A model generated the notes under the pieces. It was not told the origin of the DNA. It made no database searches and was given only the letters and a program-made list of their open reading frames with translations. A DNA stretch of 5,576 nucleotides, taken from the NCBI RefSeq assembly GCF_018420025.1, contig NZ_JAEDAM010000066.1, positions 1 to 5,576 of the forward strand, read 5' to 3'. This DNA is from Candidatus Vampirococcus lugosii. Lineage in GTDB: Bacteria; Patescibacteriota; Gracilibacteria; Absconditabacterales; Absconditicoccaceae. The position numbers and the translations under genes were made by a program. Below, in pieces: positions 1,172-5,576 of this stretch (position 1 is its first letter; each line of letters starts with the position of its first letter).

Positions 1172-2683
1172 ATGACAAAAGAACAACTTTCAAGTGCGGA
1201 GATAAAAAAAGCTTGTGATATACTTAGAAGAGATGATTGAGTATGATCCAAAAATTATATTACTGAAATATCATGGATATTATTTTTAAAACTTTTTGAG
1301 GAAATAGAAAATATCTTTGATGATATATCAGCAAGTAAGATGCAAGATTATCATTTTGTAATAGAAGAAAAATATCATTGGTCATCTTGGGCTCATGATA
1401 AAGAATATAGAAAAAATCCCGAAAAGATGCTTGATTTTGTAAGATGAAAACTTTTCCCTTATTTGAAATTGCTTTCTGGAGATTATGGAACAAAAATTGC
1501 TCAAATATTTAATACTTTGGTGCAACCAAAAATCTTGAGTTGATATAATTTGATAGATGTTGTAGATATTGTAGATAAGATAAATAAAAAAGATTTTGTT
1601 GATTCCCACTTGCTTTCTCATGCTTATGAAGAGATACTTGCCAAGATGTGAAATGAATGATGATGGGCTTGAGAATATTATACTCCAAGGTCAGTAATTA
1701 AATTTTTGATACATACTCTTGATCCTCAAGTTTGACAAAAGATAAAAGATCCATTTACTTGAAGTTGATGATTTTTGGTAGAATCGTTTGAATATCTAAA
1801 ACAAAAATCTAATTGGGATACTTTATCTACAAAAGAACAAAAAAAACTTGCTGATAATAGTTTGTTTTGACAAGAGAAAAAACAAGAATGATATATCTTG
1901 TGAATGATGAACTTGATAACTCATGGAGTGTTAAAACCAAATATAAACCTTGCAAATACTTTTGGTCAAGATCTAAATAATATAACTTGAGAATATGATG
2001 TAATATTGACAAATCCCCCATTTTGAGGGAAAGAAGCATCTCAAGTATATAAACATTATGAATATCCTACATCAGCTACAGAATGACTTGCTCTTCAATA
2101 TATCATGAAAACTTTGAAAAATGGCTGAAAAGCTTGAGTAGTACTTCCAGACGGACAGATACTTTTTGCAACGGGACTTTTTGCAGATATAAGACAGAAA
2201 CTTTTTGAAAAAAATAAGTTAAAATATATCATAAGTTTACCAGCTTGAGTGTTTGCACAGATGTGAACAGGAATCAAGACAGTTTGTATGATATTTGAAA
2301 AATGATGAAATACAAAAAATGTAGTTTATTATAACCTAAATTGAAAATATACTAAGAAAAAATTACTTCCTCTTGAAGATATGGAATCTATACTTGAAGA
2401 TATGAAACAAGTTGATATTTTTGATAAAAATCTTGATGAAAAAGATATAGATGCTTTTAATATCGCTTGAGAAGATACAAATCAAAATTTTGATAGGTGG
2501 GTAGTACCTTTGGAATACTTTGAAAATAATAATTATGACATATCACCAAAAAATCCTTTTGAAAAAAAAGATATAGTTTTGTCAGTAGATGAAAATCTAT
2601 CTTTGATAAATAAAGGAAATACTTGATTTACACAAGAGTTTGAAAATCTTAAAAAACTTTTAAAAGATAATGATTTGGTATAA
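1172..2683 (+). CDS. hsdM: Type I restriction-modification system, DNA methyltransferase subunit HsdM (N6-adenine, gamma class), 503 aa under code 25
   Basis: ATG 1172 to TAA 2681-2683, with 27 in-frame TGA and no TAA/TAG. With TGA=Gly the translation shows several HsdM hallmarks. The N-terminus is HsdM_N-like (CDILRRDDGVGSKNYITEISWILFLKLF). AGEYYTPR is at 1667-1690 and SAM motif I DPFTGSGGF at 1748-1774. LFGQE...MMNLITHG is present, and catalytic motif IV NPPFGG is at 2012-2029. The C-terminal NNYDISPKN is typical of HsdM. Confidence 0.95.
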
Positions 2684-2720
2684 AAAAATACTTGTATTTG
2701 GATGGATTATTTTAATGAAA

Positions 2721-2829
2721 TGTCTTATAAAAAAATAATTATGTCTCATAATAAATGCCTTTATTATAAGTTAAAATAGAATTTTTAATAAAAATAATGT
2801 CCTATAAATACTTGAAAAGTGTCTTATAA
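2721..2829 (+). promoter_or_regulatory. Four direct TGTCYYATAA boxes in two pairs; candidate operator/promoter module upstream of the HTH-Fic gene
   Basis: The boxes are TGTCTTATAA 2721-2730, TGTCTCATAA 2742-2751, TGTCCTATAA 2798-2807 and TGTCTTATAA 2820-2829. Spacing within each pair is 21 and 22 bp, and the pair-to-pair period is 77-78 bp. Each pair is followed by TTATTATA(A)GTT(T)AAAA(A)TA. The full 10-mer is not seen elsewhere in the window. Confidence 0.5.
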
Positions 2830-2867
2830 ATTATATACTTATTATAGTTTAAAAATAAATTAAAAAA

Positions 2868-3917
2868 ATGAGCTTAATAAAAGAAAGAAGAAATAAAATA
2901 TTAGAGTATATCAAAAATCATGAAAAAGTTCAAATTTCTGATTTATCACATTTGATAGAAGATTTTCAAGTAGATAAAAAAACGATACAAAGAGACTTAA
3001 ACAAACTTGTAGAAGAAAAACAAATTATTAAAAAATGAACTTTAAAATCAACTTTTTATGAATTTTCCCATACAAACAAACTTTTTGAAAACATAGATAC
3101 TCAAAAATATTTTGATATTGCTTATCAAGATAGAGATGTTATAGAAAGTTTTAATTTTGATATTTTTGACATTTTAAAAACTGATATTTTTAATCAAAAA
3201 GAAAATGAAAAACTAGAAAATTTACAAAATCAATTTATTAAAAATTTTTCACAATATGATAGTCAAACCTTGATAAATAAAGAGTTTGAAAGAGTAATGA
3301 TAGAATTTTCTTGGAAATCATCTGCTATCGAGTGAAATACTTATTCTTTACTTGCAACAGAAGCACTACTTAAAGAAAATATACCTGATAGTACAAAAAC
3401 TCCAGAAGAAACACAGATGATACTAAATCATAAAGATGCTTTCAATGAGGTTATACAAAACAAAACTGCTTTTTATGATCTAAAATATCAAGATATAGAA
3501 TATATTCATAGTGTTTTGATAAAAAATCTATGAGTAAAAACAAATATAAGAAAATCACCAGTTTGAATAACTTGAACAAAATATAAACCTTTAGATAATG
3601 AATTTCAAATAAAAGAAGCTTTAGAAAAAACAGCTGAACTTATAAATTATAAAGAATCATTTTTTGAAAAATCATTTTTAATTTTAATATTGCTTGCATA
3701 TATACAAGCTTTTGAAGATGGGAACAAAAGAACTTCAAGGATGCTTTCAAATGCAATACTGTTAGCTTATGATAGTATTTCTTTATCTTATAGAGCAGTT
3801 GATATTATAGAGTATAAAAAAGCTATAATACTATTTTATGAACAAAATAATATTTCATTGTTAAAAAAAATATTTATTGAACAGTTTGAAGATTCTGTAA
3901 AAAATTATTTTAATTAA
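2868..3917 (+). CDS. Fic/DOC-fold protein with N-terminal DeoR-type winged-HTH and a non-canonical Fic motif, 349 aa under code 25
   Basis: ATG 2868 to TAA 3915-3917, with 5 in-frame TGA. The N-terminus KILEYIKNHEKVQISDLSHLIEDFQVDKKTIQRDLNKLVEEKQIIKKG resembles a DeoR HTH (TIRRDL-type recognition helix). SSAIEG (3318-3335) matches the Fic inhibitory motif (S/T)xxxE(G/N). IRKSPVGITGTKYKPL matches the conserved Fic core strand region. QAFEDGNKRTSR (3705-3740) aligns to HxFx(D/E)GNGRxxR. The track ORF 3690-3917 is only the tail of this gene. Confidence 0.9.
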
Positions 3918-3933
3918 TATAAAACTTTAAAAA

Positions 3934-4491
3934 ATGGAACAAAATATATGAGATTTGATTAAAAATGTTGAGTGGAGGGAGGTTAGTATATGGAATATAT
4001 TTGAACTTAAAAAAACAAGTTTTTGAAGTAAATTAGAAAAATATATTTCAAATGAAAAACAAAAATGATATATACCATATTTATCAAGTTGATTAGCAAA
4101 TAATCAAATATCTTGATATGTAAAAAAAGAAAAATTGAAAAATGAACAAATTTATAATTGAGGATGTCTATCTTGGACAGCAAATGCTACAGGAATGATT
4201 TTTTATAGAAATGAAGAAGAATTTGCAATAAAATCAGATGCTTGAGTATTGAAATTTAAAGAAGAAATTAGAAATGGTGATAAAGATAAAAAAGAAGATA
4301 AAGAAAGTGAAGAAATTTTATGATTTACATTAAGTGAAATAAAAAAATATTTTAATTACAAATATATTTATTATTCATTGATATGAGAATTTGAAAAAAA
4401 ATGATTTGATTGGGACAATAAAGCAACAAATGAAAAAGTTAAAAAAATAAGTTTTTTAATCCCTTACAAAAAACTGAAAACCTGACATTAA
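3934..4491 (+). CDS. hsdS: Type I R-M specificity subunit HsdS, 5' portion (TRD1), terminated prematurely by a frameshift
   Basis: ATG 3934 lies 16 nt after the Fic stop. There are 185 codons with 10 TGA, ending at TAA 4489-4491. The N-terminal VEWREVSIWNIFELKK and the body (YIPYLSSGLANNQISGYV..., GGCLSWTANATG) fit an HsdS target-recognition domain. The frame breaks exactly where the conserved IPYKNG.PD...QQ.I segment begins. Confidence 0.85.
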
Positions 4492-5395
4492 TGCCCAACA
4501 AAAAATAGCAAATTTTATTGATAATTGTTTTGATAAACTTGATAATGCAGATAAATATTTGCAGTTGATTTTTCAAAGTGTAAATCAAAAAAGATGATGA
4601 TGAGATGTGATTGATAAGAATTTTTTGAATACAAATTTTGAAGATATATTGAAAAAACATGATGAAAAGATAGCAAAACTTGAAAAATTAGAAAAAGATA
4701 AACAAAAAAGAAATTTTAAAGATACAGTGATGAAGTGAAACTTGATTGATAATCTATGGAAAAGTATACTTGAAGGGGTTTTTGATGAAGCATATTTGAA
4801 AGAAAAGTTTAATTGAGTAGAGTGGGAGAAGAATAAAAGCATAGAAAATATTATAGATAATAAAAAAAGAAAAAAATATAAATTTGATGTAATTAAAGAA
4901 AATGAAATTTTAAATTCTTGAAAATATCCAGTTATTTCACAATGAGATGATTATATTAATTGATATTCTACAAATGAAGAAAAATTATTTAAATGAGAAT
5001 TTCCTTTATTAGCTTTTTGAGATCATACATTTAATATTAAATATATTGATTTTGAATTTATACCATCATGAGATTGATTAAAGAATTTGTATTTCATTAA
5101 AAATATAAACTATAAATATGTATATTATTTTATATATATGCAAAAATGAGAAATAGAATGATATCAAAGACATTTTAAAATATTGAAATCTTTAAAAATC
5201 CCAATTCCTTACAAAAACTGATACCCTGACACTGAAACTCAACAAGAAATAGTAGCTATACTTGAAAAAGCATTTATATATTATCAAAGGATGAAAAATA
5301 AAGCTGAAAGCAATCAAAAATATCTACAAAATATGAGAAAATGAATACTTACAAATATATTTGAAACTGCAAATTTACTTTCTAATCAAAAATAA
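4460..5395 (+). CDS. hsdS: HsdS, 3' portion in the +1 frame (central conserved helices, TRD2, C-terminal conserved helix)
   Basis: Frame 2 is open from 4460 (after TAA 4457-4459) to TAA 5393-5395, with 17 TGA. There is no ATG before 4730. It reads ...NGKPDINAQQKIANFIDNCFDKL..., then TRD2 (VEWEKNKSIENII...GKYPVISQGDDYINGYS...LLAFGDHT...), then IPIPYKNGYPDTETQQEIVAILEKAF...RKGILTNIFE. Removing one A from the A6 run at 4468-4473 joins it to 3934-4473 as a single ~486-aa HsdS. Confidence 0.85.
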
Positions 5396-5397
5396 AA

Positions 5398-5576
5398 ATG
5401 TATACAGAAGCTGACACAAAATCAAAACATATAGAGCCAAATCTTAAAAAATCTTGATGGGATGAATCAAACATCGCAAGAGAATATAAGATAACAGCTG
5501 ATAGTATGGTAGTAGTATGAGAAGAATACCACACCAAAAACACTGCCAAATTTGCTGATTATGTTTTGAAGATAAA
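5398..5576 (+). CDS. hsdR: Type I R-M restriction/helicase subunit HsdR, N-terminal fragment (continues beyond window)
   Basis: ATG 5398 lies 2 nt after the hsdS stop. MYTEADTKSKHIEPNLKKSGWDESNIAREYKITADSMVVVGEEYHTKNTAKFADYVLKI matches the HSDR_N pattern (tEAdTr..lIdP.L...GW ... rE..it.g ... aDYvL). It contains 2 in-frame TGA, one giving the conserved GW. Confidence 0.85.

What the first reader, a model, noticed from the sequence alone, without database searches (positions are those of the whole stretch)
3705..3740. Fic signature lacks the catalytic histidine and carries a Doc-like lysine: QAFEDGNKRTSR
The canonical Fic motif is HxFx(D/E)GNGRxxR. The sequence reads CAA GCT TTT GAA GAT GGG AAC AAA AGA ACT TCA AGG, which is Q-A-F-E-D-G-N-K-R-T-S-R. 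The His that acts as general base in AMPylating Fic enzymes is Gln here, one third-position change away from CAT/CAC. The second Gly is Lys, as in the Doc kinase variant HxFx(D/N)(A/G)NKR. At the same time the protein keeps an intact inhibitory-helix motif S-S-A-I-E-G (3318-3335), which normally exists to restrain an active site. That combination points to one of three states: a recently inactivated enzyme, a pseudo-enzyme reused as a binding or sensor domain, or a non-standard chemistry.
Basis: partly seen in the sequence, partly recalled or inferred. Interest (0 to 1): 0.7.

Follow-up and report, generated by a model that had tools for sequence, protein, structure and literature searches.

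The report
Histidine-less Fic autorepressor in R-M operon
The odd active-site signature is real, but it is the fixed hallmark of a large, widely spread family of Fic proteins and not a broken gene; the family also has a DNA-binding head and a conserved four-box operator on its own promoter, and the chemistry of the altered pocket is still unknown.

Summary
Observation confirmed. Nt 3705-3740 encode QAFEDGNKRTSR, and profile alignments put Gln280 on the Fic catalytic His and Lys287 on the second Gly. The S-S-A-I-E-G reading requires TGA=Gly (code 25), which is demonstrably the code here.

"Recent inactivation" and "assembly error" are refuted. Two independent assemblies carry CAA. 120/120 close homologues, 117/119 motif-bearing 50%-cluster representatives and 79/80 reference-genome orthologues read Q...NKR. 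Both Gln codons are used. Q280, F282, D284, N286, K287, R288, R291 and the latch E155-G156-N157 are 10 of only 15 invariant columns.

The fold is class II Fic (FICD-like), not Doc. The motif was catalogued in silico in 2015 (clade D2) and I found no biochemical characterisation.

New here: the protein has an N-terminal winged HTH. The gene travels as a ~1.2 kb cassette with four direct-repeat boxes (22/53/22 nt spacing) over its own promoter, and the box sequence co-varies with the recognition helix. So it is very probably an autorepressor.

In the window the cassette sits inside a type I R-M operon, which holds for only ~9% of family members.

Whether the pocket catalyses non-AMPylation chemistry or only binds a ligand remains open.

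The parts
1172..2683 (+). hsdM, type I R-M methyltransferase subunit (503 aa, 27 TGA=Gly codons)
   Evidence: Pfam N6_Mtase E 3.7e-56 and HsdM_N E 4.7e-11; ORF only open under code 25
2719..2731 (+). Box R1, AATGTCTTATAAA (distal operator pair)
   Evidence: the repeat finder family D1; TGTCYYATAA hit; architecture search
2740..2752 (+). Box R2, TATGTCTCATAAT, 21 nt after R1
   Evidence: TGTCYYATAA hit at 2742-2751
2796..2808 (+). Box R3, AATGTCCTATAAA, 56 nt after R2, immediately upstream of the -35-like hexamer
2812..2839 (+). Promoter-like site: TTGAAA, 16 nt spacer, TATACT (10/12 match). This is the candidate P_fic.
   Evidence: same arrangement in 41/54 array-bearing orthologous loci
2818..2830 (+). 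Box R4, AGTGTCTTATAAA, 22 nt after R3, inside the -35/-10 spacer
2868..3917 (+). Gene for the wHTH + class II Fic protein with the Q...NKR signature (349 aa, 5 TGA=Gly codons)
2874..3065 (+). [quoted passage not shown]
   Evidence: Pfam HTH_DeoR E 1.6e-8, aa 7-55; AF2 gives three helices plus a beta-hairpin wing; co-varies with box type
3318..3335 (+). Inhibitory-helix motif S151-S-A-I-E155-G156 (G encoded by TGA)
   Evidence: E155, G156, N157 invariant in 119 sequences
3549..3590 (+). Flap / beta-hairpin region (aa 228-241, RKSPVGITGTKYKP), the usual target-docking element of Fic enzymes
   Evidence: R228 and P241 invariant, V232, G236, Y239 >=90%; aligned with the FICD flap segment
3705..3740 (+). 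Fic signature variant Q280-A-F-E-D-G-N-K287-R-T-S-R291 (the finding)
3934..4491 (+). hsdS, N-terminal fragment (185 aa), ends at TAA after a frameshift
4468..4473 (+). A6 homopolymer that causes the hsdS frameshift (the internal repeat at 5206-5210 has A5 and stays in frame)
   Evidence: identical in independent assembly L001
4472..5395 (+). hsdS, C-terminal part in the +1 frame (second target-recognition domain)
5398..5576 (+). hsdR, 5' end (runs off the window), 2 nt after hsdS
   Evidence: PADLOC REase_I E 2.5e-6

Best explanation
The gene encodes a member of a large, old, horizontally mobile clade of class II Fic proteins. Their active-site signature is QxFx(D/E)(G/V)NKRxxR in place of HxFx(D/E)GNGRxxR.

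Shown:
- The Gln/Lys pair is a fixed, selected family trait.
- The fold is FICD-like, with an N-terminal Glu latch.
- The gene moves as a ~1.2 kb single-gene cassette. Its left edge is a four-box direct-repeat array and its right edge is the stop codon.

Strongly inferred (~0.8): the N-terminal wHTH binds those boxes. The proximal pair brackets the -35 hexamer and fills the -35/-10 spacer, and the distal pair lies ~75 bp (about 7 helical turns) upstream. The protein would therefore repress its own promoter.

Inferred (~0.45): the Fic pocket is a working site and not a fossil. It keeps the Mg2+-binding Asp, the anion-hole Asn, both Arg and the Glu latch, so it still binds a Mg-nucleotide or phosphoryl ligand. 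It cannot perform His-base AMPylation. The Doc-type Lys would re-orient the nucleotide. Gln, together with the invariant Glu, would position a water or an already activated nucleophile. That would give phosphoryl transfer or hydrolysis on a conserved cellular or phage target. Two brakes would keep the activity low: autorepression and the Glu latch. This is the logic of a solo toxin or defence-type effector, as shown experimentally for the canonical HTH-Fic protein CccR.

In this window the cassette lies between hsdM and hsdS-hsdR, with 16-nt and 2-nt gaps and no predicted terminator. Its promoter probably also feeds the downstream type I R-M genes.
For: Fixed trait:
- 120/120 close homologues carry the signature.
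- 117/119 motif-bearing 50%-cluster representatives do, down to ~30% identity.
- 79/80 reference-genome loci do.
- Plasmid-borne relatives at 27-48% identity in Bacteroides, Thiothrix, Rhizobium and Cereibacter do.
- 8/10 distant viral-contig relatives do.
- Gln codons at the column are CAA 59 and CAG 20.
- 10 of the 15 invariant columns are E155, G156, N157, Q280, F282, D284, N286, K287, R288 and R291.

Fold:
- AF2 pLDDT 94.5, pTM 0.84.
- Best solved matches are FICD at TM 0.60 and rmsd ~2.5 A.
- The Doc model TIGR01550 scores 20.5 bits against a cutoff of 38.65.

Operator:
- TGTCYYATAA occurs 4 times, only in the 184-nt spacer, against 0.10 expected.
- 54/80 loci beat all 40 shuffles for the 22/53/22 architecture.
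- Locus-specific boxes occur at 16.2/kb upstream against 0.057/kb elsewhere.
- TTG[ACT] precedes box 4 in 78% of loci against 18% at random positions, and TAnnnT follows in 96% against 30%.
- Box variants track recognition-helix variants across 41+ loci.

Cassette: nucleotide homology between loci stops at R1 and within ~20 nt of the stop codon. No conserved neighbour exists.

Precedent: CccR, a class II Fic with an HTH, represses its own promoter and is a toxin (PMC9755527).

Context: PADLOC SoFic E 9e-17 and PDC-S04 E 2e-15. The cassette is embedded in type I R-M operons in the window and in L008, L013, L018, L023 and L057. No terminator is predicted at 2500-4100.
Against: - No biochemistry exists for any Q-type Fic.
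- Every characterised Fic or Doc activity I know of needs the His, and FICD deAMPylation is also thought to use it (from knowledge of the family). C. fetus Fic2, which has a degenerate motif, still needs its His.
- Gln is a poor general base.
- Invariance of the pocket fits tight ligand binding without turnover equally well.
- Only ~9% of loci are next to type I R-M genes, and most immediate neighbours are housekeeping genes. The defence association is therefore weak.
- The box/helix covariation is confounded by shared ancestry.
- The promoter model assumes sigma-70-like hexamers in poorly studied CPR bacteria.
- The AF2 target was P0001, which carries five Gly-to-Trp miscalls.
Confidence: 0.45

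Rival explanations
1. Pseudo-enzyme or sensor. The Fic domain no longer catalyses anything. The pocket binds a nucleotide or another phosphorylated ligand, or docks a protein through the flap. That occupancy tunes DNA binding by the wHTH or sequesters a target, as in BirA-type or NrtR-type enzyme-derived repressors.
For: The general base is lost while the phosphate- and Mg-binding residues are retained. The layout, an N-terminal DeoR-type HTH followed by an effector domain, is that of ligand-responsive repressors. The operator array lies on the gene's own promoter. No antitoxin or partner gene is present.
Against: The boxes are found only upstream of the gene itself (0.057/kb elsewhere, which is chance level). 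A factor that regulates only itself has no selectable output, yet the protein is 60-69% identical across phyla. The inhibitory Glu and its Arg partner are invariant, which is hard to explain if there is no activity to restrain. The flap is also conserved.
Confidence: 0.35
2. Controller of the type I R-M system. In R-M-embedded copies the autorepressed promoter times or limits expression of hsdS/hsdR, as C-proteins do in type II systems. The Fic domain is secondary. This can hold together with the other explanations.
For: In the window the order is fic, 16 nt, hsdS, 2 nt, hsdR, with no terminator predicted. In L003/L013, L018, L023 and L057 the gene sits <=31 nt upstream of hsdR on the same strand. 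The HTH resembles those of WYL/CapW-type defence regulators (PADLOC WYL E 8e-5).
Against: Only 7/80 reference loci have type I R-M genes within 5 kb. The cassette keeps the same boxes in non-R-M contexts. Its position within the operon varies (hsdM-fic-hsdS here, hsdS-fic-hsdR elsewhere, hsdS-fic-hsdM in L008).
Confidence: 0.2
3. Doc-type kinase toxin. The Lys marks the protein as a Doc relative that phosphorylates EF-Tu using an inverted ATP.
For: Lys occupies the Doc-specific column. There is a weak TIGR01550 match at E 4e-4. The 2015 classification grouped Q...NKR sequences with Doc (PMC4454073).
Against: The TIGR01550 match is below the Doc cutoff (20.5 against 38.65 bits). The fold matches FICD, SoFic and CdFic, with a flap and an internal latch, and no Doc entry is in the top 50. 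The His that Doc needs is absent. The terminal Arg that the Doc consensus lacks is invariant here. No Phd-like neighbour is present.
Confidence: 0.07
4. Recently inactivated enzyme or assembly error at CAA.
For: CAA is one transversion away from CAT/CAC.
Against: Two independent assemblies agree. Q is universal in the clade, with both synonymous codons in use. The ORF is intact and under strong constraint.
Confidence: 0.01

Closest known systems
Clade 'D2' of Khater & Mohanty 2015 (Sci Rep 5:10804, PMC4454073): Fic/Doc sequences with consensus Qx[F|Y]x[D|E][G|V]NKR
   Same: The signature is the same, including the G/V alternation that I see between the window's clade (G) and the Thiothrix, Cereibacter and viral relatives (V). 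The published conclusion is also the same: retention implies the proteins are not simply dead.
   Different: That description is in silico only. It covered 45 sequences, placed them inside the Doc subfamily and called them 'usually single-domain'. Here the family is far larger (>=583 species genomes; 157 50%-clusters at E<=1e-30). It has a class II Fic fold with an internal latch, an N-terminal wHTH and an operator array. Formal identity with D2 could not be tested because the supplement gives no clade membership.
FICD/HYPE and other class II Fic AMPylases/deAMPylases (PDB 6i7k, 4u07, 7b7z; C. elegans Fic-1 5jj6)
   Same: These are the best sequence and fold matches. They share the N-terminal inhibitory helix (S/T)xxxE(G/N) with the Glu aligned to FICD E234, the flap, and the D, N, R, R positions of the signature.
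   Different: Identity is 17-19%. His363 is replaced by Gln and the second Gly by Lys. TPR domains are replaced by an N-terminal wHTH.
CccR of Yersinia pseudotuberculosis (PMC9755527), a class II Fic with an HTH
   Same: It has a Fic domain with an internal SxxxEG latch plus a DNA-binding domain in one polypeptide, and it binds and represses its own promoter. This is the best precedent for how the window's protein probably works as a regulator.
   Different: CccR has the canonical H192PFGNGNGRTVR signature, AMPylates FtsZ, has its HTH at the C-terminus and is secreted by a T6SS. None of this is shown for the Q-clade.
Doc toxin of phage P1 (HxFx(D/N)(A/G)NKR; EF-Tu kinase)
   Same: Lys replaces the second Gly of the signature.
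   Different: The His is absent here. The fold class differs: Doc is small, has no flap, and its inhibitor comes from Phd. The terminal Arg is present here. The Doc family model scores below its cutoff.
SoFic single-gene anti-phage system and PADLOC candidate PDC-S04
   Same: Homologous class II Fic proteins acting as single genes; HMM matches E 9e-17 and 2e-15. They sometimes sit in defence islands.
   Different: SoFic has the canonical His and a C-terminal wHTH. Anti-phage activity of the Q-clade is untested. The matches show homology, not membership.
C-proteins (controller proteins) of type II R-M systems
   Same: A small-operator, self-regulated HTH gene placed directly upstream of restriction genes.
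   Different: C-proteins are ~80-aa HTH-only proteins that bind inverted C-boxes. Here there is a 349-aa wHTH-Fic protein with four direct repeats, and most family members are not in R-M loci.

Membership tests
Fic/Fido superfamily (Pfam PF02661) | Significant match to the family profile | tested here: met
   51 bits against gathering cutoff 24, E 2.8e-13, aa 205-298
Fic/Fido superfamily (Pfam PF02661) | Fic fold (helical core with active-site loop and flap) | tested here: met
   AF2 pLDDT 94.5; Foldseek probability 1.00 to FICD, Fic-1, BT_2513, CdFic and SoFic, TM 0.5-0.6
Canonical AMPylating Fic enzymes | Signature HxFx(D/E)GNGRxxR with the catalytic His | tested here: not met
   QAFEDGNKRTSR: His to Gln and second Gly to Lys; the other seven specified positions are kept
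Class II Fic proteins | Inhibitory helix (S/T)xxxE(G/N) N-terminal to the signature in the same chain | tested here: met
   S151SAIEG156 aligned with the FICD E234 motif; E155, G156, N157 invariant
Doc toxins (TIGR01550 / HxFx(D/N)(A/G)NKR) | Match to the Doc family model above its cutoff | tested here: not met
   20.5 bits against 38.65
Doc toxins (TIGR01550 / HxFx(D/N)(A/G)NKR) | Lys in place of the second Gly | tested here: met
   K287
Doc toxins (TIGR01550 / HxFx(D/N)(A/G)NKR) | Catalytic His; adjacent Phd-type antitoxin | tested here: not met
   Gln at the His column. No conserved neighbour in 80 loci. hsdM and hsdS flank the gene in the window.
Khater & Mohanty clade D2 | Consensus Qx[F|Y]x[D|E][G|V]NKR | tested here: met
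   QAFEDGNKR in the window; G and V variants in relatives
Khater & Mohanty clade D2 | Placement in that clade of their tree | not testable with these tools
   The supplement lists accession numbers without clade labels
HTH-Fic autorepressors (CccR-like) | DNA-binding domain fused to a class II Fic domain | tested here: met
   HTH_DeoR E 1.6e-8; wHTH in the AF2 model. It is N-terminal here and C-terminal in CccR.
HTH-Fic autorepressors (CccR-like) | Binding to and repression of its own promoter | tested here: inconclusive
   Sequence evidence only: a conserved four-box array over promoter-like hexamers, self-restricted and co-varying with the recognition helix.
SoFic anti-phage defence | Protection against phage through AMPylation | not testable with these tools
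   Only HMM similarity, E 9e-17; the canonical His is absent
Type I restriction-modification operon (context) | hsdM, hsdS and hsdR present and co-oriented | tested here: met
   hsdS is split by a frameshift and hsdR is cut by the window end.
Type I R-M accessory gene (family-wide linkage) | Consistent adjacency of family members to type I R-M genes | tested here: not met
   7/80 loci within 5 kb; the neighbour census is heterogeneous

The most novel reading that the evidence does not exclude
The Q...NKR clade has a chemistry not yet described for the Fic fold. A Gln plus the invariant latch Glu, around a Doc-type Lys and Mg2+, would position water or a pre-activated nucleophile. That would make the protein a nucleotide or phospho/AMP-protein hydrolase, or an inverted-substrate transferase. 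This activity would be the payload of a very compact self-repressed mobile cassette (four boxes plus one gene) that is abundant in CPR/Patescibacteria. The cassette would act as a single-gene addiction or defence module. Where it has landed in front of hsdR or hsdS, it would double as a controller of type I restriction.
Probability: 0.25. Interest if true: 0.78.

Novelty: new variant of a known kind. Interest (0 to 1): 0.58.

Why it matters
Fic enzymology is built on the catalytic His. This clade has replaced it with Gln under strong purifying selection and kept every other catalytic residue and the inhibitory latch. It is present in at least 583 species-level genomes. It is therefore either a large unrecognised family of pseudo-enzymes or a missing chapter of Fic chemistry.

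The analysis makes the question testable. It defines the family and shows that it is not Doc-like in fold. It supplies a likely DNA ligand, the four-box operator. It also points to tractable hosts: Bacteroides finegoldii, Rhizobium and Cereibacter plasmids, and the cultured patescibacterium Minisyncoccus archaeiphilus.

There is a practical consequence as well. Code-25 genomes are being mistranslated in public protein databases, with Trp placed at catalytic-site Gly positions.

Tried and rejected
1. Type I R-M linkage as the key to function. Rejected as a family trait (7/80 loci) and kept only as a local, possibly secondary role.
2. A conserved partner or antitoxin. None found by all-vs-all clustering of 136 immediate neighbours (largest clusters 4, 4 and 3) or by a Pfam census.
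3. A literal search for the window's box (TGTCNNATA) upstream of orthologues. No enrichment (0.12 vs 0.12 per kb). This was misleading because the box sequence differs by lineage. A motif-agnostic repeat test revealed the array.
4. A first motif survey using read-through ORF bounds. It picked up unrelated canonical Fic paralogues in the flanks. I redid it restricted to the matched gene.
5. Handing the correct code-25 protein to the representative search and to structure prediction. I used P0001 instead, which is the same protein with five Gly-to-Trp miscalls.
7. Domain fusions in longer relatives were uninformative: only Fic, with or without an HTH.
8. Phage or viral carriage is minimal. There was no full-length phage hit, and only 10 distant relatives in 2.9 M viral contigs.
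9. Literature searches for a characterised Q-type Fic or a described operator array found none. C. fetus Fic2 has a degenerate motif but still depends on its His.
10. Rfam, tRNA and ORF scans of the ORF-free kilobase at 190-1170 found nothing.
Full report
1. THE OBSERVATION

Window 3705-3740 is CAA GCT TTT GAA GAT GGG AAC AAA AGA ACT TCA AGG = QAFEDGNKRTSR. Under the standard bacterial code it lies in a 75-aa fragment. That is the case here:
- With only TAA and TAG as stops, the window resolves into four co-oriented genes.
- TGA sits where hsdM needs Gly (DPFT*S**F = DPxxGSGGF; NPPF* = NPPFG).
- All five TGAs in the Fic gene fall on Gly-majority columns of a 119-sequence alignment (118/118 at aa 156), while the one TGG falls on invariant Trp149.
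- TGA outnumbers GGN 60:15 in the four genes.

The organism therefore uses code 25 (Gracilibacteria/Absconditabacteria). This fits the 22% GC content and the closest reference-genome loci, which are from Gracilibacteria and Absconditabacterales MAGs.

Pfam finds Fic (51 bits against a cutoff of 24) and an N-terminal DeoR-type HTH. Single-sequence and profile HMMER alignments to FICD and CdFic put Q280 on the catalytic His, K287 on the second Gly and E155 on the inhibitory Glu.

2. NOT AN ERROR AND NOT A RECENT LESION

The database protein P0001 is the window's protein with the five TGA codons called as Trp. It occurs on contigs from two sequencing runs. Those contigs are 99.95% and 100% identical to the window with no gaps, and the only mismatches are in hsdM.

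The signature Q...NKR is present in:
- 120 of 120 closest homologues;
- 117 of 119 motif-bearing representatives of 50%-identity clusters, down to ~30% identity;
- 79 of 80 orthologues in reference genomes, the exception being truncated before the motif;
- plasmid-borne relatives at 27-48% identity in Bacteroides finegoldii (QPFADGNKR), Thiothrix (QAFIDVNKR), Rhizobium (QPFIDGNKR) and Cereibacter (QPFEDVNKR);
- 8 of 10 distant relatives on viral contigs.

Both Gln codons are used at the column (CAA 59, CAG 20). In 119 sequences running down to 29% identity only 15 columns are invariant. Ten of them are E155, G156, N157, Q280, F282, D284, N286, K287, R288 and R291. So the pocket is the most constrained part of the protein, and Gln itself is selected.

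3. WHAT KIND OF FIC PROTEIN

The AF2 model is confident (pLDDT 94.5, pTM 0.84). Its caveat is that the target row carried the five Gly-to-Trp miscalls. It shows a three-helix winged HTH (aa 3-66), a linker, and then a Fic domain.

The best solved matches are FICD/HYPE (TM 0.60, rmsd ~2.5 A over ~245 columns). Next come Fic-1, BT_2513, Dde_2494, CdFic, SoFic and 7xux, all at 13-19% identity. No Doc entry is in the top 50, and the Doc family model scores below its cutoff (20.5 against 38.65 bits).

The protein is therefore a class II Fic with an internal Glu latch and a flap. The Lys is its only Doc-like feature. Unlike the Doc consensus, it keeps the terminal Arg, which normally pairs with the latch Glu.

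4. DISTRIBUTION AND CONTEXT

The 50%-cluster library has 157 clusters at E<=1e-30 and 815 at E<=1e-10. Hosts are mostly Patescibacteria/CPR. MAGs labelled Gammaproteobacteria, Verrucomicrobia, Ignavibacteria, Kiritimatiellia, Holosporaceae, Endomicrobium, Spirochaetia, Bdellovibrionales and one Nanoarchaeota also carry it. MAG labels should be read with caution. Identities of 57-69% across these groups indicate horizontal transfer under strong constraint.

In the window the gene lies between hsdM and a frameshifted hsdS, followed by hsdR. Similar embedding occurs in L003/L013, L018, L023 and L057 (directly upstream of hsdR) and in L008. But only 7 of 80 loci have type I R-M genes within 5 kb.

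No neighbour is conserved. A Pfam census of 131 immediate neighbours is heterogeneous: NYN 5, Methylase_S 3, EcoEI_R_C 3, otherwise mostly housekeeping. Some individual contexts are defence-like: a methylase/PD-(D/E)XK/helicase/Dnd-associated island in L006, AAA_14-DUF4143, AAA_13 and a C5 methylase in L092, and a Schlafen-like helicase in L010. Overall the association is moderate.

5. THE UNEXPECTED PART: A CONSERVED OPERATOR ARRAY

The 184-nt hsdM-fic spacer contains four direct copies of AATGTCYYATAAA, starting at 2719, 2740, 2796 and 2818. TGTCYYATAA occurs four times, all there, against 0.10 expected.

I defined that pattern after seeing the region, so I tested orthologues independently:
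- A literal search failed.
- A motif-agnostic search showed that 55 of 75 upstream regions carry a 9-mer family of three or more copies, against 1 of 75 shuffles.
- An architecture search (four 14-mers spaced 20-23 / 50-59 / 20-23 nt) beat every one of 40 shuffles in 54 of 80 loci, almost always at 22/53/22 nt.

The box differs by lineage: ATGTCGC(A/G)AT, ATGACGCAAT, ATGCAGCAAT, ATGTCACAAT, ATGATAC(A/G)AT, and ATGTCTTATAA in the window's lineage. Box type tracks the recognition helix:
- ATGACGCAAT goes with YSRETITRDLSFL (20 loci).
- ATGTCGC(A/G)AT goes with (I/V)D(R/K)KTLQRDLKEL (17 loci).
- ATGCAGCAAT goes with IERTTLQRDLNFL (3 loci).
- ATGTCTTATAA goes with VDKKTIQRDLNKL (3 loci).

Shared descent confounds this correlation. 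However, the same box-helix pairs appear in hosts of different phyla, which points to a binder encoded by the cassette itself.

The proximal pair overlaps a promoter-like site. R3 lies just upstream of TTGAAA, R4 fills the 16-17-nt spacer, and a TAnnnT hexamer follows. TTG[ACT] precedes box 4 in 78% of loci against 18% at random positions. TAnnnT follows in 96% against 30%, and both occur in 41 of 54 loci. The distal pair, ~75 bp upstream, lacks these signals and looks like an auxiliary operator.

Locus-specific boxes are 284-fold denser upstream of the gene than in the other 542 kb examined (16.2 against 0.057 per kb, the latter at chance level).

Upstream of the Cereibacter relative (27% identity) there is ATGTCGCGAC plus three GATCRYGACAT units, which are the same box in inverted orientation. 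Thiothrix has five GGCnGATAAy repeats.

Nucleotide homology between loci ends at R1 on the left and within ~20 nt of the stop codon on the right. The unit that moves is therefore boxes plus gene, about 1.2 kb.

6. MECHANISM

Shown:
- the fixed Q/K signature;
- the class II fold with a latch;
- the wHTH;
- the self-restricted box array over promoter-like hexamers;
- cassette-like mobility without a partner gene.

Strongly inferred (~0.8): the wHTH binds the boxes and represses its own promoter. CccR, a canonical class II Fic with an HTH, does exactly this and is also a toxin (PMC9755527).

Inferred (~0.45): the pocket is functional. A protein that regulated only itself would have no selectable output. 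Yet the Mg-binding Asp, the anion-hole Asn, both Arg, the latch Glu and the flap are all held invariant.

His-base AMPylation is excluded. From published work on Doc (my own knowledge of the family), the Doc-type Lys inverts the nucleotide. A Gln can orient a water or a pre-activated nucleophile, as catalytic Gln residues do in GTPases. That comparison is an analogy only. I therefore favour phosphoryl transfer or hydrolysis on a conserved target, restrained by the latch and by autorepression.

The main rival (0.35) is a non-catalytic ligand- or target-binding module. A local and compatible role (0.2) is C-protein-like control of hsdS-hsdR. This rests on the 16-nt and 2-nt gaps, the absence of a predicted terminator, and the recurrent placement directly upstream of hsdR.

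7. COMPARISON WITH WHAT IS KNOWN, AND NOVELTY

The motif variant is not new. Khater & Mohanty (2015) list Qx[F|Y]x[D|E][G|V]NKR as clade D2: 45 sequences, grouped with Doc, 'usually single-domain', function unknown. They argue from its retention that it is not dead. I could not verify clade identity because the supplement has no clade labels, but the G/V alternation matches.

I found no biochemical study of a Q-type Fic and no description of the operator array. Those searches cover an open-access library only.

Verdict: the feature is real, it is the hallmark of a catalogued but uncharacterised Fic variant, and it sits in a compact self-regulated cassette whose architecture is described here.

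Noticed in passing
window 2719-2830 (boxes at 2719, 2740, 2796, 2818); also upstream of fic in L003, L006-L056, L067, L092: There is a four-box direct-repeat array (22/53/22 nt spacing) over the gene's own promoter. It is conserved in architecture across phyla, and its sequence co-varies with the wHTH recognition helix.
   Followed up: yes
whole window; e.g. TGA at 3036, 3333, 3531, 3564, 3573: The genome uses code 25 (TGA=Gly), and TGA is the dominant Gly codon (60 TGA against 15 GGN in four genes). Public protein databases hold this protein and several relatives translated with TGA=Trp (FEDWNKR, IEWNTY). That puts Trp at catalytic-site Gly positions.
   Followed up: yes
window 4468-4473 (A6 tract), hsdS 3934-5395: hsdS is split by a +1 frameshift in an A6 run: IPYKK|LKTGH* instead of IPYK-NGKPD.... 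The equivalent internal repeat at 5206-5210 has A5 and stays in frame. The same tract length is present in the independent assembly L001. It could be a real truncation to a half-size S subunit, phase variation or a decaying system.
   Followed up: partly
window ~190-1170: About 1 kb upstream of hsdM at 14-22% GC has no credible ORF in either code, no tRNA and no Rfam match. That is unusual for a compact CPR-type genome.
   Followed up: partly
L013 ~9770-9790, L016 ~9770-9790, L023 ~2530-2560: In R-M-embedded copies the hsdS stop codon TAA is the first three bases of box R1 (...GELL-TAA-TATGTCGCAAT). L016 has no detectable hsdS, yet it shows a similar '...aaggggagttaTAA' string just before R1. 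This may be a remnant left by transfer out of an R-M locus.
   Followed up: no
L013, L016, L030, L006, L047, L051 (6-8 nt between the -10-like hexamer and ATG): In many CPR orthologues the -10-like hexamer lies only ~6 nt before the start codon, which implies a leaderless or near-leaderless mRNA. The window's lineage has a ~28-nt leader.
   Followed up: no
L046 (NZ_AP038758.1, Minisyncoccus archaeiphilus PMX.108, 951512-972546): A cultured patescibacterium with a complete genome carries an orthologue (58% identity, QIFEDGNKRSSR) with three ATGACGCAAT boxes. It is a possible experimental system.
   Followed up: no
L055 1848-3008; L091 1-475: Some loci carry a second, canonical Fic gene (e.g. 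ERIHPFMDGNGRIGR) within a few kb of the Q-type gene. This raises the possibility of Fic-Fic interplay like that reported for C. fetus Fic1/Fic2.
   Followed up: no
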